Shown in pieces: positions 2,446 to 15,677 of a stretch of 64,000 bases of DNA. This DNA comes from Dehalococcoidia bacterium (lineage in GTDB: Bacteria; Chloroflexota; Dehalococcoidia; Lucifugimonadales; Australimonadaceae). Numbering within the stretch: position 1 is the stretch's first letter; each line of letters begins with the position of its first letter. The DNA lies in assembly GCA_965206315.1 (NCBI GenBank), contig OZ242210.1:1474822-1538821 (forward strand), in the 5' to 3' direction. A program made the translations under genes and the position numbers. The notes under the pieces were generated by a model. The model was not told the origin of the DNA. It did no database searches and saw nothing but the letters and a program-made list of their open reading frames with translations.

Positions 2446-4146
2446 TCACGCCCCGTTGCCCATCGGCAGTTCGGGTTGCGCGCCCTCGCGCATGACGTGC
2501 GTCGCCGCGGCGGCGAACTCGCGGAACAGCGGGTGTGGCTGCTCCGGGCGCGAGCGGAACTCCGGGTGGAACTGCACCCCCACCATGAACGGGTGCTTCT
2601 CCAGCTCCACGATCTCGACGAGCGTGCCGTCCGGAGAGAGGCCGGATGCGAGCATCCCCGCCTCGTAGAGCGTTTCCCGGTACGCGTTGTTGAACTCGAA
2701 CCGATGCCGGTGGCGCTCGTTCACCTCCGGCGTGCCGTAGGCCTTCGCGGCCCTGGAACCGTGCGCCAGCACGCACGGGTAGTTGCCGAGGCGCATCGTC
2801 CCGCCCATGTCGTTGACGCTCCGCTGGTCGAGCATCAGGTCGATCACCGGGTCCGGCGTCTCCGGATCGAACTCGGTCGAGTTCGCGCCCGTGAGGCCGA
2901 GGACGTTCCGTGCGTGCTCGATGACCATAACCTGCATGCCGAGGCACAGCCCGAGGTACGGTAATTGACGCTCGCGCGCGTAGCGTACCGCCTGGATCAT
3001 CCCCTCGACCCCCCGGCTGCCGAAGCCGCCCGGCACCACGATGCCGAGCGTGTGGCTGAGCCACGCGTCCGGACCGTCGCGCTCGATGTCCTCCGAGCGC
3101 ACCCAGTCGATGCTCACGTCGCGATCGTGGTACAGCGACGCGTGACGCAGCGCCTCGCGGACCGACAGGTACGCGTCCGGCAGGTCGGCGTACTTGCCCA
3201 CGACCGCGATCGGTAGCGGCCCGTGCGGGTTCGCCATGCGCTCCGTCATCGCCTCCCAGCGCGACAGCCCGTTGCCGTTGCGCGGCGCGAGGCCCAGCTC
3301 ACGCACGAGGATCTCGCCGACGCCCTCCTGTTCGAGCACGAGCGGGGCCTCGTAGATGTTGGACAGCGTCTCCATCGGAATGACCGCGTCCGGGGCCACG
3401 TCGCAGAAGAGCGCTATCTTTTCCTTAATTGAATGGGGGATCGGATGGTCGGACCGACAGATGATGGCGTCCGGCTGGATGCCTATCGCGCGAAGCTCTT
3501 TAACGGAGTGCTGCGTCGGCTTCGTCTTCAGCTCCCCCGTCGCCCCGATGTACGGCAGAAGCGTGACGTGCACGTAGAACGTGTTGCCGCGACCCACCGC
3601 CATCCGCATCTGGCGTATCGCCTCGAGGAACGGCTGACCCTCGATGTCGCCGACCGTACCCCCGACCTCGACCAGCACGACGTCCGGCGCGCCTTCTCCC
3701 TTGTCCCCCCCATCATGTGCATCCTGTCCATCGATGTAAGTTCTTTCCTCCCGCTGCGCCCGAAGCATGAACTCCTTGATGACGTTCGTCACGTGCGGCA
3801 CCGTCTGGATCGTGCCCCCGAGGTGATCGCCGCGACGCTCCTCCCCGAGCAGCTGCGTGTACACCTGCCCCGCCGTGATGTTCGAGTTCGACGTCAGCTC
3901 GATGTCGATGAAACGCTCGTAGTGCCCCAGGTCGAGGTCCGTCTCGCACCCGTCACGCGTCACGAACACCTCCCCGTGCTGGTACGGCGACATCGTCCCC
4001 GGGTCGACGTTCAGGTACGGGTCGAGCTTCTGCACCGCCACCGTCAGCCCCCGGCTCTTCAGGATGCGCCCGATCGCCGCCGCGCAGATCCCCTTCCCGA
4101 TCGAGCTCACCACGCCCCCCGTCACGAAGATGTACTTCGTCGTCAT
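2446..4146 (-). CDS. pyrG: CTP synthase
   Basis: MTTKYIFVTGGVVSSIGKG at the N-terminus and a GATase domain (LGLCLGMQ, HRHRFE). Start is set at the ATG at 4146. The 51 further upstream codons in the ORF track translate REP repeats. Confidence 0.95.
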   Translation of the reverse strand: MTTKYIFVTGGVVSSIGKGICAAAIGRILKSRGLTVAVQKLDPYLNVDPGTMSPYQHGEVFVTRDGCETDLDLGHYERFIDIELTSNSNITAGQVYTQLLGEERRGDHLGGTIQTVPHVTNVIKEFMLRAQREERTYIDGQDAHDGGDKGEGAPDVVLVEVGGTVGDIEGQPFLEAIRQMRMAVGRGNTFYVHVTLLPYIGATGELKTKPTQHSVKELRAIGIQPDAIICRSDHPIPHSIKEKIALFCDVAPDAVIPMETLSNIYEAPLVLEQEGVGEILVRELGLAPRNGNGLSRWEAMTERMANPHGPLPIAVVGKYADLPDAYLSVREALRHASLYHDRDVSIDWVRSEDIERDGPDAWLSHTLGIVVPGGFGSRGVEGMIQAVRYARERQLPYLGLCLGMQVMVIEHARNVLGLTGANSTEFDPETPDPVIDLMLDQRSVNDMGGTMRLGNYPCVLAHGSRAAKAYGTPEVNERHRHRFEFNNAYRETLYEAGMLASGLSPDGTLVEIVELEKHPFMVGVQFHPEFRSRPEQPHPLFREFAAAATHVMREGAQPELPMGNGA

Positions 4147-4365: not shown

Positions 4366-4515
4366 GTCGGGTCGACAACGAAAGAGGGGACACTACGCCG
4401 CAGGTGGCTCGCCACCGATCTCGAGCGCGGCGTCGTCGCTTGCACGCAGCGATTCTAGGCACCGCTGGCGCCGAGTGTCAATCGACGCGTCCCTGCAACC
4501 CCGCACACTGGCGCA

Positions 4516-4545
4516 TTGACACATCACGCCCCACGCTGGTAGAAA
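4516..4545 (+). promoter_or_regulatory. candidate promoter of surface-protein paralog 1 (TTGACA-18-TGgTAGAAA, extended -10)
   Basis: TTGACA at 4516-4521 and TAGAAA at 4540-4545, preceded by TGg. The same two boxes occur upstream of paralog 2 (12507-12535), although the spacer sequence differs. Confidence 0.5.
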
Positions 4546-4759
4546 GAACCTTGCGTGTTGACGCAGGCACATACGCGAGGCGATTGGCCGGAACTGCCCT
4601 TTGCATCCTATTGCAAGGGCGGCGGCTCTCGTTGGACAATAGCATCCCTGCCATGCCGCGCAGCACTTTGCGCGCACGCAGACACAGACGAATAACGGAC
4701 CACCCTGCTCTCGGAGAGAGCGCCAAGCCCAAGACTACAGCTCCATAAGGGGGGTAGAA
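4546..4759 (+). promoter_or_regulatory. long conserved 5' leader of surface-protein paralog 1 (structured 5' UTR candidate)
   Basis: Nearly identical to 12536-12749, with 3 mismatches across 4535-4831. Hairpins at 4549-4567, 4596-4620, 4648-4663 and 4707-4721. SD aagggggg lies just before the GTG at 4760. Confidence 0.5.
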
Positions 4760-7700
4760 GTGAGATTCACCAAGATTCCGCTCATAGCGACATTGATGGC
4801 AGTGGCGCTCTCGCTGCTCATCGTTCTCCCGACGCTGGCTCAGGTCAGCGGCGACCGAACCGACGGCCGGCTCTCCGCCGGCGACTGGATCGACGTCCGC
4901 GTCGCCGACAACATCGACGACCTCAACAACACGCCGGATGAAGCTACTCCGGCCCCTGCGAACATCGGCAACAACGATGATGCGTGGGCCACCGCCACTG
5001 GCGGCGGAGCCTTCAACGCGCGGGACACCTACTTCGACGGCACCCTCTACGTCTCCAACAAGGACGATGCCTACAACACCATCCTCATCACCGCAAAGGT
5101 GAGCGGCACTGGGAACCTCCAGGCTTCGGGCCCGTCCGGTCGTGGAGATGACGCAGCTACTGAGGACAACCCCGACACACCAGCAGTCGAAAACGACGAG
5201 AGTGTGGTCGACTGTTACGATTCGGCTAACGGCGGCGTTGCCATCGCGACCGTCAGGAACAGCCGCAGCAACACCCCGGTCACGGCATTCCTCTTCCCGA
5301 CGAATGAAGATGAAGGCGGCACAGAGATTTACCAGGGTGTAGTCGCCATCCTTGACCAGGAAGACGCCATCGGGCCCCACAACGGCCCTTGTGCCGCCGA
5401 CCAGGTCGAGCCTGAACTCTACTTGGGCTCGGGCGAGCAGATTCTTGACGCCGACCGTGACATCGAGCCCGACCCGGTAGACGACCCCGCCACGGAAAAC
5501 GTCAACGAGCGCACCGTGGCCATCCGCGGCTACAACGACCCCGGCAACGATGACGGCTGGACGCACGCCAGCATGGCGGTGCTCCCCGCCCGCGACGGCG
5601 ACACCCTCACCATCACCGTGAAGGGCGTCTCCGGCTCCGTCCGCCTCGTCGTCGACGGCGCAGCGCCCGAGATCGAGGACGTCTCCCCCGCCTCCGGCGG
5701 CACCCAGAGCAGCACCAGCATCGACCTCGGCTTCACCGTCAGCGACGACGGCTCCGGCATCCGCTACGACGGCGAGTCCGGCGTGAGCGGCGACCCCGAC
5801 CTGACCCCCCACAACGGCGACCGCGACCAGCGCTTTGACGAGCCGATCACGAAGGTGGGCGCTGGCCAGGACCTCACCACTAGTCCCCCCACCTACGTCG
5901 CGGGCGACGGCAGCACCGAAGACATTATGGTGCTCTACGACGACGACGACTCGGGCATGACCATGCAGTATCTCATCAACACCAACTGCGCTAACGGCGG
6001 CACCCAGACGAGTGAGGCCCAGTGTGAATCGGGCGGGACCACGTACGACAACGACTCCAACTCCGCCTACACCGGCTACCTCATCAACTTCGACGCCGCT
6101 GACGATGTCTCCGCGTACGGCAGCAACGGCTGGACGCAGGGTATGAGGGGCGTTACGTACGACCTCGACATGCGCCTCGTGGGCCAGGGCTTCGGCGAGT
6201 ACTTCTGGCAGGTTACCGCCAAGGACCGCGTCGGCAACATGGCCATCACCGACTCCGACGAGGACGACCCCGGCGCACAGCCCTACTCCTTCAAGGTCGA
6301 CGACGAGGGCCCGATGGTCCCGGACGAGGGCGCGCGCACCGGCATCGGCTACGAGCCCGGTGAGGGCGAGTTCAAGAGCCGCTCCTGGATCGCTCTCAGG
6401 TTCGTCAACGAGGACCAGGGCGATGCCGACCGCATCGACGCGGGCACCGTGGAGCCGGGCGACTTCACGGTCGAGGGCCACACGGTCATGAGCGTCGTCG
6501 TCCCGAGCGACAAGAAGGTCTGCAAAGAGGACGACCCGGCGACGGAAGAGGAAGAAGACGCCAAGAACATCGATTCTTTCGATTCCGGTTGTGACTTCGA
6601 GCCCCGCGCACGCATCTACCTGGAACTGGCGGACGCACTCGACTCCGACGAGACGCCCACCATCCAGCTGCTCGGCGGCGTCTTCAAGGACATCGCCGGC
6701 AACAACAACGTCACGCAGTCGCTCGAAAACGTGCAGGACAAGATCGCACCGGGCGTGAGCATCACGATCACCAGCGACAGCGGCGCGACCGGCCGCACCG
6801 CCACGGACGACGAAGGCTCCTTCACCGTGCGCGTCACCTCGGACGAGGATCTGCGCACCTTCCCGCGCCTCTTCTTCGCCACCCTCGAGGGCGAGGCGGA
6901 CGTCGACGATGGCGTCGGCGGCACAGCAAGTAACCTCGTGATCAGGGAAGCGACCACCACCCCACCGGACGGCAAGGAGCTGACCGAGAAGGAATCGAAC
7001 GTCTGGGAGAAGTCGTTCGAGGACGATGACATCGAGGGCGACGACGACCGGATCGTGGCGGTCGTCATCACCGCCGAGGACGAGGAAGGCAACAGCGGCA
7101 ACAGCGCCGGCTGGAAGGACAGCGACAGCAACGGCATCCCGAGTGCGGGCGACTCGCTCGACTTCAAGAAGCTGGACGCCGGCGGCTTCCTCCTGGAGAT
7201 CGACAGCGCCTTGGCGGCGGCGGAGATCGAGGTGCTGCCGTCCACCGACCCCGGTGAAGTCACGGACGAGACGGAGAGCCCGAACCCGTACATCCAGATC
7301 ACCTTCAGTGAACAGGATGAATACGGGATCCGCGTCACCGACGACAAGGGCACCACGGCCGAGAACGCCCCGGCAGTGGGGGACCCGGACTACGATGCCA
7401 ACTACGACCCGACCGACGACGACGAGAGGGGTACGTCCAGGAAGATAGACATCGGTGACGGTGACACGGCGAGGACGGACTCGCACCGCAGCGTCGAGAT
7501 TACGGCGATCACGCTCAACGGCAACGACATGCTGGCCGATATCGTCCAGGTCGACCCGTGGAAGTACGTGCTCGCGGTCACCGGCCTCGAGATCGGCGAG
7601 TACGAACTCGTCTACTCGGCCCGGGACGACGTCGGCAACGACGTCGAGGACGAGGACGAGACGTTCGAGGTGCTCGAGCGCCAGCCGTACGACATCGAGC

Positions 7701-8215
7701 TCCAGCCCGGCTGGAACCTCATCTCCCTCCCCGGCGACCCGTTCAACCCCGCCGTGGGCAGCGTCATCGGCGCCGACCTCAGGGCCGACACCGTCCTCGG
7801 CTACCAGGGCGGCGAGTGGGTCACCGCCGTCAAGAACGACGACGGCCGCTGGCAGGGCACGCTGGTCGACATCGTGGGTGGCTACGGCTACTGGGTGCGG
7901 ACCACCGCGGTCGAGACCATCGAGGTCGTGATTCCGCCCATCCTGCCGACCTCTAACCTGCCGACCGTGCCCGTGGTCTCCGGGTGGAACCTGCTGGGCG
8001 TCGTGGACGCAGACCAGACGAACATCGGCAACGAAGGCGACAGCGAAGACGCTGACGAGTACTTCACCAGCCTGAACACCTGGCGTGTGGCCTACAGCTT
8101 CGCGACCCAGCAGAACCAGTGGTCCAAGCTGCTGCCCGGCCAGGCCGACCACATGGTGGAGAACGGCAAGGGCTACTGGGTCTGGGTCACCCGCCCGGGC
8201 ACCCTCGTCCCGTAA
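4760..8215 (+). CDS. large acidic secreted protein, surface-layer-like family, paralog 1 (1151 aa)
   Basis: GTG start preceded by an SD. Signal peptide MRFTKIPLIATLMAVALSLLIVLPTLAQ. D/E/T-rich. The order of conserved blocks is shared with 12750-15677, 15805-19398 and 40184-43228, and the protein ends NGKGYWVWVTRPGTLVP. Confidence 0.85.
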   Translation: MRFTKIPLIATLMAVALSLLIVLPTLAQVSGDRTDGRLSAGDWIDVRVADNIDDLNNTPDEATPAPANIGNNDDAWATATGGGAFNARDTYFDGTLYVSNKDDAYNTILITAKVSGTGNLQASGPSGRGDDAATEDNPDTPAVENDESVVDCYDSANGGVAIATVRNSRSNTPVTAFLFPTNEDEGGTEIYQGVVAILDQEDAIGPHNGPCAADQVEPELYLGSGEQILDADRDIEPDPVDDPATENVNERTVAIRGYNDPGNDDGWTHASMAVLPARDGDTLTITVKGVSGSVRLVVDGAAPEIEDVSPASGGTQSSTSIDLGFTVSDDGSGIRYDGESGVSGDPDLTPHNGDRDQRFDEPITKVGAGQDLTTSPPTYVAGDGSTEDIMVLYDDDDSGMTMQYLINTNCANGGTQTSEAQCESGGTTYDNDSNSAYTGYLINFDAADDVSAYGSNGWTQGMRGVTYDLDMRLVGQGFGEYFWQVTAKDRVGNMAITDSDEDDPGAQPYSFKVDDEGPMVPDEGARTGIGYEPGEGEFKSRSWIALRFVNEDQGDADRIDAGTVEPGDFTVEGHTVMSVVVPSDKKVCKEDDPATEEEEDAKNIDSFDSGCDFEPRARIYLELADALDSDETPTIQLLGGVFKDIAGNNNVTQSLENVQDKIAPGVSITITSDSGATGRTATDDEGSFTVRVTSDEDLRTFPRLFFATLEGEADVDDGVGGTASNLVIREATTTPPDGKELTEKESNVWEKSFEDDDIEGDDDRIVAVVITAEDEEGNSGNSAGWKDSDSNGIPSAGDSLDFKKLDAGGFLLEIDSALAAAEIEVLPSTDPGEVTDETESPNPYIQITFSEQDEYGIRVTDDKGTTAENAPAVGDPDYDANYDPTDDDERGTSRKIDIGDGDTARTDSHRSVEITAITLNGNDMLADIVQVDPWKYVLAVTGLEIGEYELVYSARDDVGNDVEDEDETFEVLERQPYDIELQPGWNLISLPGDPFNPAVGSVIGADLRADTVLGYQGGEWVTAVKNDDGRWQGTLVDIVGGYGYWVRTTAVETIEVVIPPILPTSNLPTVPVVSGWNLLGVVDADQTNIGNEGDSEDADEYFTSLNTWRVAYSFATQQNQWSKLLPGQADHMVENGKGYWVWVTRPGTLVP

Positions 8216-8339: not shown

Positions 8340-8995
8340 ATCCTGCCTCCCCTCATCGGCGCTAGCGCGCCCGCCCTCACCCGCCGGGAACACCCTCACC
8401 CACGCACTTTCAGTGCGCTCCCTCTCCCAGAGGGCGAGGGTAGGGAACCGGGCCCCCTCTGAGTGAGGGTCCCCCCCAGGACGCGGGGCAATAGCCCCCG
8501 TCATTCCAGCGAACGCGGGAATCCAGTGGCCTGGCCCCCCGGACGCGGGGCACAGCCCCCGTCATTCTCGCGAAGGCGGGAATCCAGAAGAAGAGCGGAG
8601 CGATGCCGGTCTGACCCCTCGCCCCCTGTGGTGAGGCGCGGTGGGTGTTCCTACCCCTCGCCCCCTGGGAGAGGGAAACGCGCGCCAGCGCGAGGGTGAG
8701 GGCCAACGTGTGACACGCACCCATTGCGCGGACCCGCCCCCATGCCCCACCATGGAACGCGACACCCAACCGAATACCGGACCGACACCCTCGCGGACGA
8801 GCCGCGGGAAAGGGCGCAAAGCCTCCTGAGAGCCAGGAGGCTTTTCCCTTTAAACCCTCACCCGCCACTTCGTGCCTCCCTCTCCCCCAGGGCGAGGGGG
8901 GGAACCGGGGGCCTCCCTGTCTGGCCCCTCGCCCCCTGGGAGAGGGCAACGCGCCTTGGCGTGTGGGTGAGGGTCAATTAATCGGTGGAGAAGAC
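8340..8995. repeat. large mosaic REP-like repeat array
   Basis: Successive units of families B (gcgcccgccctcacccgcc...ccctctccc), E (gtcattccagcgaacgcgggaatccag; gtcattctcgcgaaggcgggaatccag) and A (ccctcgccccctgggagagggaaacgcgcgccagcgcgagggtgaggg). A unique segment at about 8700-8850 interrupts the array. Confidence 0.8.
8818..8851 (+). terminator. intrinsic-terminator-like hairpin with T-rich tail (aaagcctcctg-agagc-caggaggcttt-tccctttaaa)
   Basis: 11-bp stem followed by a T-rich tail, which is unusual in this GC-rich window. It closes a non-repeat segment of about 150 nt. Confidence 0.45.
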
Positions 8996-8997
8996 CT

Positions 8998-10971
8998 ATG
9001 ACCGCCGTGCTCGAAGACTACAAGAACGACCCCGTTGCCTTCGTCGAGGAGGTCCTCGGCCACCCCCCGCCCTACGAGAAGCAGCGGGAGATCCTCCGCA
9101 CCGTCGCCGATGAGCGCCGCACCAGCGTCGTCGGCGCCAACGGCTCCGGCAAGGACTGGGCCGCCGCCCGCACCATGCTCTGGTGGCTCGCCACCCGCCG
9201 GCAGGCCATCGCCGTCGCCACCGGCCCCACCCAGCGACAGGTCGAACAGATCGTCTGGCGCGAGATGCGCGCCGCCTGGAAAGCCTCCAACGTCGACCTC
9301 GGCGGACGCATGAGCGGCTCCCAGTGGAACATCGCCGACGACCGCTACGCCATCGGCTTCTCCACCAACAAGGCCGACAACCTCCAGGGCTTCCACTCCC
9401 CGGAGCTCCTCGTCGTTGTCACAGAGGCCCACGCCATGCCGCAGGACCAGATGGAGGCCCTCAAGCGCCTCTACCCCGCCCGCATGCTCCTCACCGGCAA
9501 CGCCTTCTCCCGTGACGGCGAGTTCTTCGACTCCCACCACACCAAGCGCCACATCTACACCGGCGTCACCATCTCCGTCTACGACACCCCCAACTTCACC
9601 GGCGAGAACGGCGGCGCCCCCGGCATGCCCACCGAAGAAGACATCGAGGAGCGCAAACTCGACTGGGGCGAGGACCACCCCCTCTACCAGGGCTCCATCC
9701 TCGCCAAATTCCCCGACATGCTCGACGACTCCCTCCTCTCCCGCTCCGCCATCGAAGCCGCCGTCACCCGCTGGGAAGAGGGGGGAGAGGGCAACGCGCT
9801 ACGCGCCCCCGTCCCCCTCCCTCGCCCCCTGGGAGAGGGGGAGGAACCCTCCGCCCCCGTCCCCATCCCTCGCCCCCCGGGAGAGGGAAACGCGCCTTGG
9901 CACGAGGGTGAGGGTTCCCCTGCGTCCCCCTCTTCGGCGCTGTCGCGCCCGCCCTCACCCGCCGCTGCTGCGCGGCTCCCTCTCCCCCAAGGAGAGGGGG
10001 AGGAACCCTCCGCCCCCGTCCCCATCCCTCGCCCTCTGGGAGAGGGAAACGCGCGCCAGCGCGAGGGTGAGGGTTGCCCCCCGCCCCCTGATCCCACCCC
10101 TCGCCCCCTGGGAGAGGGAAACGCGGTTCACCGCGAGGGTGAGGGTGTTCCCCACCGCGAGGGTGAGGGTGTTCCCCACCGCGAGGGTGAGGGTTGCTCC
10201 CCGCCCCCCGATCCTTCCCCTCGCCCCTCGGGAGAGGGCGATCTCCCCACCCCTCGCCCCCTGGGAGAGGGAAACGCGCCCCAGCGCGAGGGTGAGGGTG
10301 CCCCCCGGCGCGTGGGTGAGGGCCCCCGCCTCGGCGTCGACGTCGCCCGCTTCGGCTCCGACCACACCGCCCTCTGCGTACGCCGAGGCTGGCGCGTCGA
10401 GTCCCTCCGCTCCTTCTCGCGCGTCGACACCATGCGCACCGCGGGTGAGGCTGCCGCACTCGTACGCGACCGCGACATCCCTGCCGTCTTCGTCGACGAG
10501 GGCGGCCTCGGTGCGGGCGTCGTCGACCGCCTCCGCGAGCTCGAGGTCCCCGTGCACGGCGTCCAGTTCGGCGGCAAGGCCCGCCAGTCCGGACGCTTCG
10601 CCAACAAGCGCGCCGAACTCTTCTGGGAGCTCCGGCGCCTCTTCAACGACAACCTCATCGCCATCCCCCGTGACGAGGAGCTCATCAGCCAGCTCCTCGG
10701 CCTCCGCTACGACGTCACGAGCGCCGGACAGGTCAAGATGGAGAGCAAGTCCTCCCTGCGCCGCCGCGGCCTCCGCTCCCCCGACAAGGCCGACGCCCTT
10801 GCCCTCGCCTTCATGGAGCCCCCCTCGCTCCAGATCTGGACCGGCCCCCCGTCCGTCGTTCCTGCGGAGGCAGGAACCTCGCATTTGCCCCCCGTCCGCG
10901 ACTCCACCTCCTGGCCCTCCTCCCCCTCCACCTCCCCCGAAACCCTCCGCAACCGCTTGGGGGTGTGGTAA
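8998..10971 (+). CDS. phage terminase large subunit-like protein, interrupted in frame by a REP array (possibly decayed or domesticated)
   Basis: N-terminal ATPase part with a Walker A-like VVGANGSGKD and a Walker B-like ELLVVVTEAH. C-terminal RNaseH-like nuclease part GVDVARFGSDHTALCVRRG ... KADALALAF. Residues about 262-440 are a translation of REP units (PLGEGNARQREGEG). The ORF tail reads into a family-C hairpin (VVPAEAGTS). Confidence 0.7.
   Translation: MTAVLEDYKNDPVAFVEEVLGHPPPYEKQREILRTVADERRTSVVGANGSGKDWAAARTMLWWLATRRQAIAVATGPTQRQVEQIVWREMRAAWKASNVDLGGRMSGSQWNIADDRYAIGFSTNKADNLQGFHSPELLVVVTEAHAMPQDQMEALKRLYPARMLLTGNAFSRDGEFFDSHHTKRHIYTGVTISVYDTPNFTGENGGAPGMPTEEDIEERKLDWGEDHPLYQGSILAKFPDMLDDSLLSRSAIEAAVTRWEEGGEGNALRAPVPLPRPLGEGEEPSAPVPIPRPPGEGNAPWHEGEGSPASPSSALSRPPSPAAAARLPLPQGEGEEPSAPVPIPRPLGEGNARQREGEGCPPPPDPTPRPLGEGNAVHREGEGVPHREGEGVPHREGEGCSPPPDPSPRPSGEGDLPTPRPLGEGNAPQREGEGAPRRVGEGPRLGVDVARFGSDHTALCVRRGWRVESLRSFSRVDTMRTAGEAAALVRDRDIPAVFVDEGGLGAGVVDRLRELEVPVHGVQFGGKARQSGRFANKRAELFWELRRLFNDNLIAIPRDEELISQLLGLRYDVTSAGQVKMESKSSLRRRGLRSPDKADALALAFMEPPSLQIWTGPPSVVPAEAGTSHLPPVRDSTSWPSSPSTSPETLRNRLGVW
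9775..10325. repeat. REP-like array inserted inside the terminase-like ORF
   Basis: About 10 family A/B units. They include cgcgagggtgagggtgttccccac repeated in tandem (10130-10200). Confidence 0.8.
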
Positions 10972-11530
10972 TGGGGAACACCACTCATGGCGCTATCGCG
11001 CCCGCCCTCACCCGCCCGCTATCGCGGCCTCCCTCTCCCCCAAGGAGAGGGGAGGGGACCGGGGCCCCTTCGCTATTCCCTTCCCCTCGCCCTCCGGGAG
11101 AGGGAAACGCGGTTCACCGCGAGGGTGAGGGTTGCCGCCCTTGCCTGCTCCCCTCGCCCCCTGGGAGAGGGAAACGCGCGCGAGCGCGAGGGTGAGGGCT
11201 GCCCCCGCCCCTCGCCGGGAACACCCTCACCCGCCACTTCGTGCCTCCCTCTCCCAGGGGGAGAGGGGAAAGAATGAAGGCGCCCGCCTTCCCATCCCTC
11301 GCCCCCTGGGAGAGGGCAACGCGCCCCAGCGCGAGGGTGAGGGTTGCCCTGTGCGCCAGCACGTGGGTGAGGGCTGCTCCCCTCGCCCCCTGGGAGAGGG
11401 AAACGCGCCCCAGCGCGAGGGTGAGGGTTGCCCTGCGCGTCACCGCGTGGGTGAGGGCTGCCGCCCCTGTCTGGCCCCTCGCCCCCTGGGAGAGGGCAAC
11501 GTGCGTCAGCACGTGGGTGAGGGTTTAAAA
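10850..11530. repeat. mosaic REP-like repeat array
   Basis: Family C hairpin (10855-10880), then alternating B and A units up to the DUF559 start. Confidence 0.8.
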
Positions 11531-11537
11531 TCCCCCC

Positions 11538-11885
11538 ATGGACTTCACCTCGAGAGCCCGCGGCCTCCGCCGCACCTCCACCGATGCGGAGCGACTGCTA
11601 TGGCAGCGGGTACGCAACCGAGCACTCGACGGGCACAAGTTCCGCAGACAGGTCCCCATCGGCCCATACATCGCCGACTTCGTCTGCGTCTCCGGAGGAC
11701 TGATCATCGAACTGGACGGGAGCCAGCACCACGAACAAACACCTGAAGACCAAGAGCGCACGCGATCGCTCGAAGGCGCCGGCTACCGCGTCCTCCGCGT
11801 CTGGAACAACGACGTCCTCCATCGCATGGACAAAGTACTGAACGCAATCATGGCCGAACTGAACGCAACCAAGGAGGACAGCTGA
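11538..11885 (+). CDS. DUF559 (Vsr-like) endonuclease domain protein
   Basis: Motifs TDAERLLWQRVRNR..GHKFRRQVPIGPYIADFVC....IIELDGSQH.........D..R...LEGAGYRVLRVWNNDVL are typical of the DUF559 family. Confidence 0.9.
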   Translation: MDFTSRARGLRRTSTDAERLLWQRVRNRALDGHKFRRQVPIGPYIADFVCVSGGLIIELDGSQHHEQTPEDQERTRSLEGAGYRVLRVWNNDVLHRMDKVLNAIMAELNATKEDS

Positions 11886-12500
11886 TGTGGAGTGTCAGTG
11901 GCGCTGTCGCGCCCGCCCTCACCCGCCGCTACGCGCCGCGCTTCAGCGCGCCCCCTCCTCCCCCAAGGAGAGGGGAGGGGACCGGGGCCCCCTGTCTGAC
12001 CTCCCTCGCCCCCTGGGAGAGGGAAACGCGCGTGAGCGCGAGGGTGAGGGTTGTCGCCACCGCGAGGGTGAGGGTGCCCCAGCTGATGTGGAGTGTCAGT
12101 GGCGCTGTCGCGCCCGCCCTCACCCGCCGCTACGCGCCGCGCTTCAGCGCGCCCCCTCCTCCCCCAAGGAGAGGGGAAAGAATGAAGGCGCCCGCCTTCC
12201 CATCCCTCGCCCCCTGGGAGAGGGAAACGCGCGCCAGCGCGAGGGTGAGGGTTGCCCCCTTGCCTAGCTCCCTCGCCCCCTGGGAGAGGGAAACGCGGTT
12301 CACCGCGAGGGTGAGGGTGTTCCCCCGGGTGAGGGTCGCCCATTGTCTGGCCCCCTCGCCCCCTGGGAGAGGGAAACGCGCGCCAGCGCGAGGGTGAGGG
12401 TCGCCCCCTTGCCTGCTCCCCTCGCCCCCTGGGAGAGGGAAACGCGGTTCACCGCGAGGGTGAGGGTTGTCCCCTCCGTGAGGGCGAGGGTTGCCCCCTA
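11886..12500. repeat. mosaic REP-like repeat array, including a 98-nt direct duplication that starts inside the DUF559 stop region
   Basis: 11879-11976 and 12080-12177 are identical (cagctgatgtggagtgtcagtggcgctgtcgcgcccgccctcaccc...). Family A units follow each copy. Confidence 0.8.
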
Positions 12501-12506
12501 TCCTCA

Positions 12507-12535
12507 TTGACACACGCGCCGTCCGCTGGTAGAAA
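12507..12535 (+). promoter_or_regulatory. candidate promoter of surface-protein paralog 2 (TTGACA-17-TGgTAGAAA)
   Basis: TTGACA at 12507-12512 and TAGAAA at 12530-12535. Same architecture as 4516-4545. Confidence 0.5.
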
Positions 12536-12749
12536 GAACCTTGCGTGTTGACGCAGGCACATACACGAGGCGATTGGCCGGAACTGCTCTCTGCATCCTA
12601 TTGCAAGGGCGGCGGCTCTCGTTGGACAATAGCATCCCTGCCATGCCGCGCAGCACTTTGCGCGCACGCAGACACAGACGAATAACGGACCACCCTGCTC
12701 TCGGAGAGAGCGCCAAGCCCAAGACTACAGCTCCATAAGGGGGGTAGAA
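12536..12749 (+). promoter_or_regulatory. conserved 5' leader of paralog 2
   Basis: Nearly identical to 4546-4759. Confidence 0.5.
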
Positions 12750-15677
12750 GTGAGATTCACCAAGATTCCGCTCATAGCGACATTGATGGCAGTGGCGCTC
12801 TCGCTGCTCATCGTTCTCCCGGGACTCGCACAGTCCTCTGGCTACGACGACACCCGGGGTACGCTCTCCAGCGGCTCCAGCCTGACGGTTTCTGTCGTGG
12901 ACACGCTTGGGACGACGTTGACTGGCGACCGCACTGGCTTCGAGGACACCGGAGCAGAGGTGCTTGCCGGCTCCTACTTCAACGGCACTCTCTACGTCTC
13001 GAACGACGATGACGCGCACAACCTGGTGCGGATCTCCGCTGTGGGCGGCTCCACCACCGAGTTCGCGGGGCCGTCCGGCTCTACGACGGATGTTCCCGAT
13101 GCTGCCAATGACACGCCGGATGACCCGACCACGGACGCAAACGAGTTCGCCGCCGCTTTCGACGAATCATCGGACAACGTCGACTGTGTCGTGGCGACGG
13201 TGCGGAACAACCGCAGCGGAAAGCGGATCAGCGTCAGCCTGAACAACGACACTGCGAATTCCACAGGACTCCTGAACTCGGTGGTCTTTGCGGTCGTCCC
13301 GAACGGCTTGGAGGAGATGAACAACGGCACCAGGGCGTGCGGCGAGGAAGCCGCTGATGACCCGGTGGCGGTTACTACACTCAGTGCCACTGACGGCACC
13401 GCCGTAACGGGTGCCACGGACACCGCAGACGGCGCGCGCATGCCGGCGCGCCACGGCGACACCCTGACCATCACGGTGAGGGGCGTCTCCGGCAGCATCA
13501 CCATCAAGGTCGACGCCGAGGGGCCGGAGTTCTCCGAGATCTCCCCCGAGCACGGCGCCTTCATCAGCTCCCAGACCGTCAAGTTCCGCTTCGTCGTCAG
13601 CGACTCCGACTCCGGTCTCGCGCACGACGGCGAGCTCGACTACTCCCAGGGCGACCGGGACGCGCGCGCCTACAACACCGACGGCGACAACTTCACGACC
13701 TCCGAGCCCCGCTCCGTGGTAACCACCGGCCAGTCCCGGGATATCCAGGTGATGATGGATGGCGGCGACCAGAGCGGGAACGGCAGCAGCGGCTGGCGCC
13801 AGCGCGGCGACCGGCCCGGCGTCTCCTACTTCCTGGACATGGCCGTCACCAACGTTTCTGAGGGCTCCAACCCCTGGTACCTGCAGGCCACCGACCGCGC
13901 GGGCAACACGGACCGCACCGACTCCAGCGCGAGCAAGGACGGCGACCAGCCCTTCAGCCTGACCGTCGACGTCTCCTCGCCGGAGTTCAGGGACGCCCGC
14001 ACGGGCATCTCCTACGACTCCGACAAGAAGAAGGAGGTCGTCAACCGCTCCTACATCGCGGTGACGTTCGAGGACGCGGACAGCCTCGATGCCGTGATGA
14101 ACATCGACCACACCAAGTTCCTCGTCGAGGATGCCGAGGTCGTCGGCGCCATCCACCTCTCCGACGACTCGGACTGCGACGAGGACGAGCCTCTGGACAT
14201 AGACGGGGTCTGCATCACCGACGACCAGGTGCCGGGCTCCCGCATCTACCTTGAACTGGCCGAGCCGCTCGCCCCCGACGCCGCACCCCTGGTTTCCATG
14301 TTTGGCGGCGCCGCGCTCGACCTCGCCGGCAACCCCAGCAACCAGGATGAGGTTACCGCAGCGGACAACATCGCTCCGGCCATCACGGTCACGATCGCCA
14401 CGGAGGTCGGCGACCGCCCGGTCATCAGGAACAATGGCGAAGTCACCGTCAGCATCAGCTCGGACGAGGACCTGCGCCGCCTGCCGACCGTCTACTTCGC
14501 CGAAGTCGTGGTGCATGCTGACTCGACAGAGGCGAAGCCGGTCCAGGGTCTGGGCGGCGTGCGCCGCGGCGACCGCGTGCAGACCGGCTCGGACGACAAC
14601 TCCTGGATGCGCGTCTACAACAACGGCGACGTCGGCAGTGATGACGCGCTCTACACGGTCATCGTCGTCGCCGAGGACGACGCGGACAACGTCGGCTCCA
14701 CGCCTGGCTGGACGCGGGACAGGAAGACCAAGGTGCCCGAGTCCGGCCACAAGGCCACCCTCGCGGATCTCACGGCAGGCGGTCTGCTCTTGGAGATCGA
14801 CACGGCCGCGAACGCCGGCAACGACCCCGACTTCTCGCTCTCCCCGCAGTCTGATGAAGGCGAGACGGAGAGCAACAACCCGTACGTCACCATCGATCTG
14901 ACCGACGAGGAGAAGGAGTACAGCGCGGCGCTCAAGGGCGACTCGCACACTGCAGTTGCGCTCGTCTCCGTCACGCTGAACGGCAACGACGTGAGCGACC
15001 ACGTCGCCGAGGTGGAGGACAACAAGTACACGTTCGCTGGGCAGAACCTCGGCATCGGCGAGTACGAGTTGAAGGTCACCGGCCGCGACGACGTTGGCAA
15101 CGAGGTGTCGGACACCTACGAGTTCGAGGTCACGGCGCGGGCTGCGTACGAAGTGGACCTCATACCGGGCTGGAACCTTGTCTCGGTGCCGGGCACCCCG
15201 CTCGACTCCAGCGTCCAGTCGGTCATGGGCGACACCATGCAGGCAACCATCGTGCTGGCCTACCAGGACGACGCATGGCTCACCGCCGTCAACGACAACG
15301 GCACGTGGCGCGGGACCCTCACCGACATCGTCGGCGGCTACGGCTACTGGGTCCAGACCACCGCCTTCGAGTCCATCTCGGCCCTGATCCCGGAGACGGA
15401 CACCTCGTCCATCCTCCCGACGGCCAGCGTCATCGCGGGCTGGAACCTGCTCGGCGTCGTGGACGTCCTGCAGGCCGACGCCGGCGACCCGCCGTCCGGC
15501 GGCGATGAGGCCGACGACTACTTCGACAACATCGAGTGGAAGGTCGCCTACTCCTTCAACACTTCGGAGAACACGTGGGCGAAGTCCATACCGGGCGACG
15601 GCGACAACGACGACGAGATCGTCAACGGCAAGGGCTACTGGGTCTGGAGCACGGAGGCCGGCACGCTGGTCCCGTAA
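12750..15677 (+). CDS. large acidic secreted protein, surface-layer-like family, paralog 2 (975 aa)
   Basis: GTG start. The first ~70 nt of the CDS are identical to paralogs 1 and 3. The protein ends NGKGYWVWSTEAGTLVP. Confidence 0.85.
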   Translation: MRFTKIPLIATLMAVALSLLIVLPGLAQSSGYDDTRGTLSSGSSLTVSVVDTLGTTLTGDRTGFEDTGAEVLAGSYFNGTLYVSNDDDAHNLVRISAVGGSTTEFAGPSGSTTDVPDAANDTPDDPTTDANEFAAAFDESSDNVDCVVATVRNNRSGKRISVSLNNDTANSTGLLNSVVFAVVPNGLEEMNNGTRACGEEAADDPVAVTTLSATDGTAVTGATDTADGARMPARHGDTLTITVRGVSGSITIKVDAEGPEFSEISPEHGAFISSQTVKFRFVVSDSDSGLAHDGELDYSQGDRDARAYNTDGDNFTTSEPRSVVTTGQSRDIQVMMDGGDQSGNGSSGWRQRGDRPGVSYFLDMAVTNVSEGSNPWYLQATDRAGNTDRTDSSASKDGDQPFSLTVDVSSPEFRDARTGISYDSDKKKEVVNRSYIAVTFEDADSLDAVMNIDHTKFLVEDAEVVGAIHLSDDSDCDEDEPLDIDGVCITDDQVPGSRIYLELAEPLAPDAAPLVSMFGGAALDLAGNPSNQDEVTAADNIAPAITVTIATEVGDRPVIRNNGEVTVSISSDEDLRRLPTVYFAEVVVHADSTEAKPVQGLGGVRRGDRVQTGSDDNSWMRVYNNGDVGSDDALYTVIVVAEDDADNVGSTPGWTRDRKTKVPESGHKATLADLTAGGLLLEIDTAANAGNDPDFSLSPQSDEGETESNNPYVTIDLTDEEKEYSAALKGDSHTAVALVSVTLNGNDVSDHVAEVEDNKYTFAGQNLGIGEYELKVTGRDDVGNEVSDTYEFEVTARAAYEVDLIPGWNLVSVPGTPLDSSVQSVMGDTMQATIVLAYQDDAWLTAVNDNGTWRGTLTDIVGGYGYWVQTTAFESISALIPETDTSSILPTASVIAGWNLLGVVDVLQADAGDPPSGGDEADDYFDNIEWKVAYSFNTSENTWAKSIPGDGDNDDEIVNGKGYWVWSTEAGTLVP

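What the first reader, a model, noticed from the sequence alone, without database searches (positions are those of the whole stretch)
11515..12177. DUF559 (Vsr-like) endonuclease gene embedded in the repeat arrays and bracketed by inverted repeat arms: candidate nuclease associated with repeat spread
- Context: the only intact small gene inside the 4-kb repeat field is a DUF559 endonuclease.
- Flanks: its start codon lies 15 nt after a family-A arm (gggtgaggg, 11515-11523). Its stop is followed within 30 nt by the complementary arm (ccctcaccc, 11916-11924).
- Duplication: a 98-nt segment beginning inside the stop region (cagcTGAtgtggagtg...) is duplicated 201 bp downstream (11879-11976 and 12080-12177). 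This indicates recent local recombination or replication slippage around the gene end.
- From memory, DUF559 genes in many GC-rich genomes carry similar 'GEG.GVRA'-type repeat translations at their ends.
- Hypothesis: a functional link, with the nuclease nicking or mobilising the hairpin repeats, or homing into them. To my knowledge this has not been established.
Basis: inference. Interest (0 to 1): 0.6.

Follow-up and report, generated by a model that had tools for sequence, protein, structure and literature searches.

The report
Nuclease gene nested in triplex repeats
A small, intact DNA-cutting-enzyme gene (DUF559) sits inside the largest array of a known but unexplained three-armed repeat in this Dehalococcoidia genome. 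The same gene-plus-repeat pairing recurs across bacterial phyla, which suggests one mobile cassette and makes DUF559 a candidate protein partner for these repeats.

Summary
- Window 11538-11885 (+) encodes a 115-aa DUF559 protein (Pfam E 1.8e-40), the only small one in the 2.87-Mb genome.
- GGGTGAGGG ends 14 nt before its ATG. CCCTCACCC starts 30 nt after its stop. A 98-nt segment from the gene's end is repeated exactly 201 bp downstream.

The "arms" are parts of three-arm units (CCCTCGCCC / GGGAGAGGG / GGGTGAGGG). These belong to the published triplex-motif family (TM/PIT/BoxC). The local variant has an extra mini-hairpin, as in Rfam Whalefall-1.

The gene-repeat link is far beyond chance.
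- In this genome, 0.7% of genes are bracketed by such units.
- Among relatives, 15 of 21 DUF559 genes have a repeat hairpin within 150 nt upstream.
- Among 80 homologues from many phyla, 43 do, about 57 times the local background.
- In repeat-poor genomes, a third of all repeat hairpins lie at DUF559 genes.
- Each cassette's two flanks match each other.
- Filled and empty sites exist.
- dN/dS is 0.09-0.20.

Repeats are equally abundant in sister genomes that lack the gene, so they do not depend on it. My best reading is a mobile DUF559-repeat cassette. Nuclease action on the repeats is untested. I found no paper describing the pairing.

The parts
11538..11885 (+). DUF559 (Vsr-fold PD-(D/E)XK) nuclease gene, 115 aa, intact
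   Evidence: Pfam PF04480 E 1.8e-40. PDB 3HRL E 1.3e-24. D47, E58, D60 and H64 are invariant in 18 relatives. dN/dS is 0.09-0.20.
11476..11523 (+). 5' three-arm repeat unit (triplex-motif type, 18-nt second loop): CCCTCGCCC-cct-GGGAGAGGG-caacgtgcgtcagcacgt-GGGTGAGGG. The third arm ends 14 nt before the ATG.
   Evidence: In 24 of 37 repeat-flanked homologues from other phyla the third arm ends 0-16 nt before the start codon.
11900..11976 (-).
   Evidence: (D8, D12).
11879..12058 (+). First copy of the local duplication. It begins 4 nt before the stop codon. Its first 98 nt are identical to 12080-12177.
   Evidence: D5: 180 nt, 89%. (98 of 98, unique in the genome).
12080..12259 (+). Second copy of the local duplication, without the gene
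10987..11475 (.). Upstream repeat array: units at 11005-11056(-), 11079-11131(+), 11151-11198(+), 11224-11267(-), 11296-11343(+), 11380-11427(+)
12003..12498 (+). Downstream repeat array: units at 12003-12050, 12204-12251, 12270-12317, 12353-12400, 12419-12466. It includes a 149-nt internal duplication (12204-12335 / 12353-12484, 92%).
   Evidence: (D4).
9770..10330 (+). Further repeat units of the same family, read in frame inside the terminase-like ORF 8998-10971, between its ATPase and nuclease halves
8393..8973 (.). Outer edge of the repeat field: five more units on both strands

Best explanation
**What it is.** The ORF is an intact DUF559 nuclease gene under purifying selection. Together with the three-arm 'triplex-motif' repeats on its two sides it forms one discrete, horizontally mobile cassette.

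**Anatomy.**
- The 5' repeat has the gene's orientation and serves as its leader. Its third arm, GGGTGAGGG, lies where a ribosome-binding site is expected.
- The 3' repeat, direct or inverted, closes the cassette. When inverted it often supplies the stop codon from its loop.

**How it moves (inferred).** Such cassettes land in hypervariable intergenic gaps that already collect repeats. The most likely route is recombination through the repeat sequences. That recombination may be started by a nick or cut made by the cassette's own nuclease at a repeat.

**This locus.** In this genome the cassette lies in a gap between a terminase-like gene and a surface-protein gene. The repeat array around it has since grown by local tandem duplication. 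The 98-nt exact copy is the latest such event.

**Limit.** The roughly 180-210 repeat copies elsewhere in the genome do not need this gene.

**Shown:** the association, the paired ends, filled and empty sites, selection on the protein, and local duplication.

**Inferred:** that the nuclease recognises or cuts the repeat, and the recombination route.
For: 1. **Enrichment.**
   - Relatives: 15 of 21 loci have a hairpin within 150 nt upstream and about 16 of 21 downstream.
   - The 80 best homologues in GTDB species genomes, from Proteobacteria, Binatia, Planctomycetota and Dehalococcoidia: 43 upstream, 32 downstream, 50 either, against 0.0094 per 150 nt farther out in the same loci.
   - Own-genome background: 0.7% of genes are bracketed.
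2. **Repeat-poor genomes.** In ten genomes with 4-12 hairpins each, 25 of 74 hairpins lie within about 500 nt of a DUF559 gene. About 0.05 are expected.
3. **Matched ends.**
   - In an alphaproteobacterium with 9 paralogues, each 5' flank matches the reverse complement of its own 3' flank: score 68.5 against 25 for non-self, with no shuffle of 20,000 reaching it.
   - The same holds, direct or inverted, for 18 loci of this order: 69 against 29.6.
4. **Shared unit in different contexts.** Two different genomic contexts share homology that starts exactly at the 5' repeat unit and ends at the end of the DUF559 domain.
5. **Spacing.** The third arm ends 0-16 nt before the start codon in 24 of 37 loci.
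6. **Filled and empty sites.**
   - At the window's own gap, repeat arrays plus the gene occur only in G000 and G016. Eight other species have 0-2 units there.
   - A second hot spot gives an allelic series.
   - In Vogesella the spacer is 75 nt without any repeat in four species, and 820-940 nt with repeats plus DUF559 in three.
7. **Selection.** dN/dS is 0.09-0.20 and the catalytic-type residues are invariant.
8. **Paralogues in one genome.** G016 has two paralogues, each flanked by the repeat variant that its nearest relative carries in other genomes.
Against: - No target-site duplication was seen at any filled/empty pair. In Vogesella about 50 nt of the old spacer was replaced. The entry mechanism is therefore unknown.
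- The 3' repeat varies in orientation, and some cassettes have none.
- In this window the 5' and 3' units are different subtypes (inverted self-score only 26).
- Thirty of the 80 homologues have no such hairpin nearby, and four of the ten genomes checked for these have no such hairpin at all.
- The same gaps also collect unrelated repeats and genes, so part of the co-location could be a hot-spot effect.
- Nothing shows that the protein binds or cuts the repeat.
- The handles for the repeat-poor test were chosen among repeat-flanked loci.
- My gene calls for the background are crude.
Confidence: 0.5

Rival explanations
1. Passenger in a hot spot. Triplex-motif repeats and small foreign genes such as DUF559 both accumulate, independently, in a few permissive hypervariable intergenic gaps. 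The nuclease has nothing to do with the repeats.
For: - The window's gap holds different repeat families in each species: 36-nt and 80-nt tandem repeats and other hairpins.
- The second hot spot holds unrelated 0.4-2 kb inserts in five genomes.
- Published work found triplex-motif loci hypervariable and found no mobility genes beside them (PMC4666352).
- Repeats are abundant in genomes without the gene.
Against: - It does not explain the 57-fold enrichment across phyla.
- It does not explain that a third of all hairpins lie at DUF559 genes in repeat-poor genomes.
- It does not explain the start codon 0-16 nt after the third arm, or the cassette-specific matching of the two flanks.
- At the window's gap, the DUF559 gene goes with triplex-motif arrays and not with the other repeat families.
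- The other bracketed genes in this genome are housekeeping genes, at a rate of 0.7%.
Confidence: 0.22
2. RAYT-like driver. The single-copy DUF559 nuclease nicks the hairpin repeats and thereby multiplies, moves or homogenises the whole genomic family, as RAYT transposases do for REP/REPIN sequences.
For: - There is one nuclease gene and about 180-210 repeats in this genome, and the gene sits in the largest array.
- Outside the genus, 6 of 7 genomes with a small DUF559 have at least 20 hairpins, against 3 of 32 without (Fisher p 1.7e-4).
- This genome has the most copies of the local variant in its genus: 79, against 34 for the next.
- Arrays next to the gene are larger than other arrays nearby.
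- In G016, five near-identical 87-nt units lie beside the gene.
Against: - Within the genus, counts do not differ with the presence of the gene (medians 114 and 104, p 0.39).
- G019, with no DUF559, has 34 copies of the variant. About 8 of them lie at sites where the strict patterns find nothing in G000; at two of the five such sites aligned, G000 keeps a decayed or partial unit.
- G058, G049 and G093 are repeat-rich without a flanked gene.
- Repeats occur mostly as single or direct copies, not as REPIN-like inverted doublets.
- The genome-size confound outside the genus was not removed.
Confidence: 0.15
3. Cis-regulatory reading. The repeats are portable leader and terminator modules (ribosome-binding site, RNA hairpins). 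DUF559 is a host or defence nuclease that happens to use them. The repeats play no part in mobility.
For: - The third arm sits at ribosome-binding-site distance.
- In one relative the downstream host gene starts after an identical repeat plus ATG (L003).
- In this genome, 65% of units lie downstream of a co-oriented gene (p 8e-5) and 87.5% lie outside called genes.
- The pyrimidine arm pairs with the third arm through G-T, which is a pair only on the sense strand.
- A similar motif is filed in Rfam as an RNA, Whalefall-1.
Against: - The published repeats showed no promoter or terminator activity (PMC4666352, citing earlier work).
- It does not explain the matched cassette-specific ends, the co-transfer of repeats with the gene into repeat-free sites, or the patchy distribution of the gene.
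- The single-unit folds are not clearly better than shuffles (z -0.8 to -3.0).
Confidence: 0.1

Closest known systems
Intrastrand triplex motifs (TM_ECO / PIT elements / BoxC; Holder et al. 2015, PMC4666352)
   Same: - The three arms and their sequence match the published consensus CCCTCNCCC-N3-6-GGGNGAGGG-N3-GGGNGAGGG. Units seen beside DUF559 genes in relatives and in other phyla fit it, and 38 units in this genome have its 3-nt second loop.
- The units are intergenic and multi-copy, and their loci differ between close relatives.
   Different: - The units around this gene have an 18-nt second loop that holds a CGCG mini-hairpin, and a G in the middle of the pyrimidine arm.
- The paper found no mobility gene and no common flanking gene. 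Here a DUF559 gene is the recurrent neighbour.
Rfam RF01762 Whalefall-1 RNA motif
   Same: The model is a CUCUCC/GGAGAG hairpin, then a second hairpin, then GGGUGAGG. This is the architecture of the 18-nt-loop variant. There are hits at window 11004-11053(-) and 9951-10000(-).
   Different: The scores, 24.5 and 23.6 bits, are below the gathering score of 37. No unit in the window or in four loci reaches it. It is filed as an RNA of unknown function with no gene partner.
REP/REPIN-RAYT systems
   Same: A single-copy nuclease-type gene is flanked by members of a short structured repeat family that has about two hundred copies in the same genome.
   Different: - The enzyme is unrelated: Vsr-fold PD-(D/E)XK rather than an IS200-type HUH tyrosine transposase.
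- The repeats have three arms and are not organised as inverted doublets.
- The repeats persist in sister genomes without the gene.
Vsr-like (EDxHD) homing endonucleases such as I-Bth0305I (from my own knowledge; not read here)
   Same: A small Vsr-fold nuclease gene behaves as a selfish insert, with presence/absence polymorphism at the same site in close relatives.
   Different: It is free-standing and lies in intergenic repeats, not in an intron or intein. Its target would be a dispersed repeat rather than a conserved gene. No cleavage site is known.
E. coli YcjD (NCBIfam PRK09767) and PDB 3HRL
   Same: A full-length match of the same small single-domain protein: 96.6 bits over residues 4-111, and E 1.3e-24 to 3HRL.
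   Different: The score is below the equivalog cut-off of 218 bits. The function of YcjD is itself unknown.
Small transposons and MITEs with terminal inverted repeats
   Same: Many cassettes have matched inverted ends of 35-60 nt.
   Different: No target-site duplication was seen, there is no known transposase family, and many cassettes have direct rather than inverted ends.

Membership tests
DUF559 (Pfam PF04480) | Match to the family profile above the curated cut-off | tested here: met
   137.7 bits against a cut-off of 20.6, over profile positions 3-108 of 109.
DUF559 (Pfam PF04480) | Conserved acidic and histidine residues of the Vsr-like PD-(D/E)XK core | tested here: met
   D47, E58, D60 and H64 are invariant in 18 aligned relatives. 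The protein aligns to 3HRL over residues 15-109. Catalysis itself cannot be tested here.
Vsr very-short-patch repair endonuclease | Match to the Vsr family profile and linkage to a cytosine methyltransferase | tested here: not met
   Pfam returns only DUF559 and MTES_1575, with no Vsr family hit. The neighbours are repeats, a terminase-like gene and a surface-protein gene.
Triplex motif (TM_ECO / PIT / BoxC) | Three arms CCCTCNCCC, GGGNGAGGG, GGGNGAGGG in this order | tested here: met
   There are 184 units in the genome and 29 in the window. The consensus was taken from PMC4666352.
Triplex motif (TM_ECO / PIT / BoxC) | Loops of 3-6 nt and 3 nt | tested here: not met
   The units flanking this gene have a second loop of 18 nt or more. 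88 of the genome's 184 units have exactly 18, and 38 have the canonical 3 nt.
Triplex motif (TM_ECO / PIT / BoxC) | Intergenic, multi-copy, at loci that vary between close relatives | tested here: met
   161 of 184 units lie outside called genes. Both loci studied are hypervariable across the genus.
Triplex motif (TM_ECO / PIT / BoxC) | Forms an intrastrand triplex in vitro | not testable with these tools
   It needs CD or NMR on oligonucleotides.
Rfam RF01762 Whalefall-1 | Score at or above the gathering threshold | tested here: not met
   24.5 and 23.6 bits against 37. No unit passes at gathering.
REP/RAYT | The nuclease is an IS200/IS605-type HUH tyrosine transposase | tested here: not met
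   The protein is DUF559 only.
REP/RAYT | The repeat family depends on, and co-occurs with, the gene | tested here: inconclusive
   They co-occur outside the genus (6 of 7 against 3 of 32). They do not within it (medians 114 and 104). G019 has 34 variant copies and no gene.
Homing endonuclease gene | Filled and empty alleles of the same site in close relatives | tested here: met
   Seen at the window's gap, at the second hot spot, and at the Vogesella acnD-prpF spacer with flanks 93-97% identical.
Homing endonuclease gene | The enzyme cuts the empty allele | not testable with these tools
   No biochemical data exist.
Transposon or MITE with terminal inverted repeats | Target-site duplication at the ends | tested here: not met
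   None was seen in Vogesella. A repeated 'ccgtcaa' at the second hot spot is also present in the empty alleles.

The most novel reading that the evidence does not exclude
DUF559 nucleases of the YcjD type are the long-missing protein partner of the BoxC / PIT / triplex-motif repeats, and of the 'Whalefall-1 RNA', which would then be a DNA element.
- The enzyme would recognise the folded three-arm unit. One possible substrate is the mismatch formed when the pyrimidine arm pairs with the third arm: G-T in this genome's variant, which is the kind of substrate Vsr-type enzymes act on.
- Its nick there would drive homing of its own cassette.
- The same nick would also drive the array growth, gene conversion and local genome instability that have been reported at these repeats.
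Probability: 0.25. Interest if true: 0.85.

Novelty: new variant of a known kind. Interest (0 to 1): 0.6.

Why it matters
Triplex-motif (BoxC/PIT) repeats have been known since the 1990s. They occur in hundreds of bacterial genomes and mark unstable loci. The main survey found no associated gene or mobility function. DUF559 is a large protein family of unknown function.

A reproducible, cross-phylum physical coupling of the two gives each a testable hypothesis. It points to a repeat-and-nuclease partnership that uses an enzyme fold unrelated to RAYT transposases. It can be tested with a 115-aa protein and 50-nt oligonucleotides.

For this genome, the coupling explains a 4-kb repeat field and shows how such arrays grow. 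The arrays can even sit in frame inside a gene.

Tried and rejected
- **Genome-wide co-localisation inside this genome.** It is impossible as stated because there is only one small DUF559 gene. I replaced it with cross-genome tests.
- **Dependence of repeats on the gene.** Rejected within the genus, both for total hairpin counts and for the window's own variant.
- **Comparison with G019.** Of the 27 repeat sites of G019 with an orthologous locus in this genome, 12 carry a unit of the same variant here, others carry changed units, and about 8 carry none that the strict patterns find. Of five of those 8 that I aligned, two hold a decayed or partial unit (an internal deletion at one, only the right half at another) and three hold none. 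So turnover also goes on without the gene. This test does not separate the hypotheses.
- **Target-site duplications.** None were found.
- **Fixed distance from repeat to start codon in the Dehalococcoidia set.** It varies from 0 to 96 nt. Only the cross-phylum set shows a mode at 0-16 nt.
- **Single-unit folding energy.** Not clearly better than shuffles.
- **Covariation within the 48-nt units.** Almost none. The copies are too uniform and the arms were fixed by my search pattern.
- **Other bracketed genes as alternative partners.** All are housekeeping genes.
- **Defence-system membership.** There are only weak matches to the C-terminal domains of large helicase-type proteins.
  - The look-up of encoding contigs had no exact copy of the protein.
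  - One Rfam call was over the size limit.
Full report
**1. What is there**

The window is positions 1474822-1538821 of a single-contig genome of 2.87 Mb and 66.5% G+C. Close relatives are deposited as Dehalococcoidia MAGs (OY764542.1 is G020 and OZ251500.1 is G008).

ORF 11538-11885 (+) encodes 115 aa.
- It matches Pfam DUF559 over almost the whole profile (E 1.8e-40).
- It matches the solved 'endonuclease-like protein' 3HRL (E 1.3e-24).
- It matches NCBI's YcjD model below the equivalog cut-off (96.6 against 218 bits).
- It is the only small DUF559 gene in the genome.

- GGGTGAGGG lies at 11515-11523, 14 nt before the ATG.
- CCCTCACCC lies at 11916-11924, 30 nt after the TGA.
- 11879-11976 is repeated without a single difference at 12080-12177. 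It occurs nowhere else in the genome. It sits within a 180-nt duplication at 89% identity.

**2. What the repeats are**

The 9-mers are arms of a unit of about 48 nt: CCCTCGCCC-cct-GGGAGAGGG-aaaCGCGCnnnnGCGCGa-GGGTGAGGG.
- The first arm can pair with the second with one G-A mismatch.
- It can also pair with the third arm with one G-T pair.

This is the published intrastrand 'triplex motif', also called PIT element or BoxC. Its E. coli consensus is CCCTCNCCC-N3-6-GGGNGAGGG-N3-GGGNGAGGG (PMC4666352).

That paper reports several things.
- The motif occurs in more than 260 genomes.
- It is always intergenic in E. coli K-12.
- It lies at loci that are rearranged between strains.
- No transposase, integrase or common flanking gene was found.

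This genome has 184 units by my pattern.
- 88 have the 18-nt second loop and 38 have the canonical 3-nt loop.
- 161 lie outside my crude gene calls.
- 65% lie downstream of a co-oriented gene.

The 18-nt-loop variant has the same layout as Rfam's Whalefall-1 'RNA' motif. The window hits that model only below threshold (24.5 against 37 bits).

The field around the gene is the largest cluster in the genome. Its units are local sub-variants arranged as recent duplications.

**3. Is the gene-repeat link more than chance?**

Within this genome n = 1, so I went to other genomes.

*Own-genome background.* 2.9% of genes have a unit within 150 nt upstream, 4.2% downstream and 0.7% on both sides. All the other bracketed genes are housekeeping genes.

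*Relatives.*
- Among 61 genomes of the same genus, family and order, strong matches to small DUF559 genes occur in 18. They are patchy: about half of the genus has one.
- Of the 21 loci I fetched, 15 have a repeat hairpin within 150 nt upstream and about 16 within 150 nt downstream.
- Several loci are orthologous pairs. Counting about 14 independent contexts, the excess is still p about 7e-8 against a 10% background.

*Other phyla.*
- I took the 80 best homologues among GTDB species genomes. They come from Alpha-, Beta- and Gammaproteobacteria, Binatia, Planctomycetota and Dehalococcoidia, and were not selected for their flanks.
- The same hairpin sequence lies within 150 nt upstream in 43, downstream in 32, and on either side in 50.
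- The background more than 300 nt from the gene in the same loci is 0.0094 per 150 nt.

*Repeat-poor genomes.* In ten genomes with only 4-12 hairpins each, 25 of 74 hairpins lie within about 500 nt of a DUF559 gene. These ten were picked among flanked loci, so the figure is conditional. It still shows that the repeats travel with the gene.

**4. Evidence that gene and repeats form one unit**

(a) *Shared boundaries.* Two different genomic contexts in the genus (L033/L045 and L035/L037) share 77-82% DNA identity. The shared stretch begins exactly at the 5' repeat unit. It runs through a spacer with AAGGAG and the ATG, and it ends at the end of the DUF559 domain.

(b) *Start-codon spacing.* In 24 of 37 repeat-flanked loci from other phyla, the third arm ends 0-16 nt before the predicted start codon. 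This is ribosome-binding-site distance. In the window the distance is 14 nt.

(c) *Stop codon.* Where the 3' unit is inverted, its loop (TTA, CTA or TCA read backwards) supplies the stop codon. The third arm then encodes the protein's tail.

(d) *Matched ends.* In one alphaproteobacterial genome with nine diverged paralogues, the 5' flank of a cassette matches the reverse complement of its own 3' flank. The score is 68.5, against 25 for other cassettes, and no shuffle of 20,000 reaches it. In 18 loci of this order, self scores 69 and non-self 29.6, taking direct or inverted.

(e) *Paralogues in one genome.* G016 has two paralogues with different repeat variants. Each matches the variant at its nearest relative in another genome.

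(f) *Selection.* The protein is under purifying selection (dN/dS 0.09-0.20). D47, E58, D60 and H64 are invariant. A few relatives carry pseudogenes.

**5. Filled and empty sites**

*The window's own gap* runs from the terminase-like stop to the surface-protein gene.
- It is about 1.56 kb here (10940-12500), against about 200-700 nt in eight other species of the genus.
- Each of those species fills it with different repeats. G019 has eight 36-nt tandem units, G021 has seven 80-nt units, and others have other hairpins. They hold only 0-2 triplex-motif units.
- Arrays of triplex-motif units plus DUF559 occur only in G000 and G016. G016 has five near-identical 87-nt tandem units next to the gene.

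*A second hot spot,* a divergent promoter region, gives an allelic series.
- It is empty (239-266 nt) in three genomes, including this one.
- It holds one unit in G001 and several in G021, G003 and G013.
- It holds unrelated inserts in five genomes.
- It holds repeat, DUF559 and inverted repeat in G016 and G017.
- G013 and G021 carry the same 5' unit at the same place without the gene.

*In Vogesella* the acnD-prpF spacer is 75 nt and repeat-free in four species.
- In three species it is 820-940 nt long. It then holds an inverted unit, three modules that each end in a unit, and DUF559.
- The TGA of DUF559 overlaps the prpF ATG.
- The flanks are 93-97% identical.
- No target-site duplication is visible. 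About 50 nt of the old spacer is replaced.

**6. Does the family of repeats need the gene?**

No.
- Within the genus, hairpin counts are the same with and without the gene (medians 114 and 104, p 0.39).
- The window's own variant has 79 copies here. It has 34 in G019 (no DUF559), 30 in G017, 27 in G013 and 26 in G016.
- Of the 27 G019 sites with an orthologous locus here, 12 carry a unit of the same variant in this genome. Others carry changed units. About 8 carry none that the strict patterns find. Of five of those 8 that I aligned, two hold a decayed or partial unit and three hold none.

Outside the genus the two do co-occur: 6 of 7 against 3 of 32 genomes have at least 20 hairpins (p 1.7e-4). 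Genome size is a confound there.

The direction of dependence therefore looks like gene on repeat, not repeat on gene.

**7. Mechanism**

*Most likely (0.5).* This is a selfish or at least mobile DUF559-repeat cassette. It enters repeat-bearing gaps by recombination through the repeats, perhaps after a nick by its own nuclease. The array then grows by slippage or unequal exchange. The exact 98-nt copy that starts 4 nt before the stop codon is a fresh trace of this.

*Shown:* steps 3-6 above.

*Inferred:* any action of the protein on the repeat.

*Rivals.*
- Hot-spot passenger (0.22).
- RAYT-like driver of the whole family (0.15).
- Purely cis-regulatory repeats (0.10).

*Speculation.* In this genome's variant the pyrimidine arm pairs with the third arm through a G-T pair. 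That is the kind of mismatch Vsr-type enzymes nick.

**8. What is known**

- My full-text search for DUF559 gave 25 papers. None links the family to these repeats.
[quoted passage not shown] Inverted flanking repeats would explain that.
- The triplex-motif paper explicitly found no partner.
- Earlier notes of this scan report the same pairing in E. coli ycjD, Clostridia, Bacteroidota and Actinobacteria. They pointed me to the BoxC literature. Their later checks put the 'partner enzyme' reading at 18-27%. I tested the pairing, the matched ends and the lack of dependence independently here.

**9. Limits**

- My gene calls are crude (GC3-based).
- My hairpin patterns miss diverged units.
- Several loci are orthologous and not independent.
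- There is no biochemistry.

Noticed in passing
window 8998-10971 (+), linker 9770-10330: A terminase large-subunit-like ORF (PHROG phrog_2 on both halves) carries about 560 nt of triplex-motif repeats in frame between its ATPase and nuclease halves. In 7 of 9 other species of the genus the linker is filled with different, species-specific repeats (95-462 nt) and the frame still stays open into the C-terminal half. Only G017 (frameshift) and G003 (stop in a 1.75-kb linker) are broken.
   Followed up: partly
window 9100-10940; G000 genome 2664471, 2173154, 793710 and others: The terminase-like gene is a multi-copy family. Several paralogues at 70-77% DNA identity occur in every genome of the genus. 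This is unusual for a prophage packaging gene.
   Followed up: no
window 4514-4831 and 12508-12824: The upstream region and 5' end of the surface-protein gene 12750-15677 are duplicated at 97% identity in front of gene 4760-8215. In G021 a different DUF559 lineage (58% identical protein) sits beside that paralogous region, facing away from it.
   Followed up: partly
window 11004-11053 (-) and 9951-10000 (-): There are sub-threshold hits to Rfam Whalefall-1 RNA (RF01762). Its consensus has the same hairpin, hairpin, GGGUGAGG layout as the local repeat variant. This orphan 'RNA motif' may be a DNA repeat of the triplex-motif family.
   Followed up: partly
orthologues of window 10971-12500 in G019 (L149), G021 (L156), G012 (L150), G015 (L155): The same intergenic gap holds unrelated tandem repeats in each species. 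Examples are eight 36-nt units 'ccttgtcatgttgagcg...' in G019 and seven units of about 80 nt ending in GGGAGAGGGtact in G021. The gap is a general sink for short repeats.
   Followed up: no
L034 9323-9677 and 9882-10307 (G047): One relative's DUF559 cassette lies about 200 nt downstream of the tmRNA gene, a classic landing site for mobile elements.
   Followed up: no
L045 (G021:C1), around the DUF559 pseudogene: This DUF559 copy has an in-frame TAG. Behind the cassette lies a diverged second copy of the 3' end of the upstream gene (...FKARRVIDGRDLYGE* against ...FKARRVIDERDPYKE*), as if the insertion had replaced the gene's end.
   Followed up: no
L143 (Vogesella aquatica), about 3340-3355: The TGA of DUF559 overlaps the ATG of the downstream prpF-like gene (ATGA). 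The insertion therefore replaced that gene's own ribosome-binding site and coupled its translation to the cassette.
   Followed up: partly
G000 genome-wide (one search list): GGGTGAGGG copies keep one strand over long stretches, for example all + from 2.25 to 2.41 Mb and all - from 2.46 to 2.55 Mb. This follows local gene orientation rather than replication direction.
   Followed up: partly
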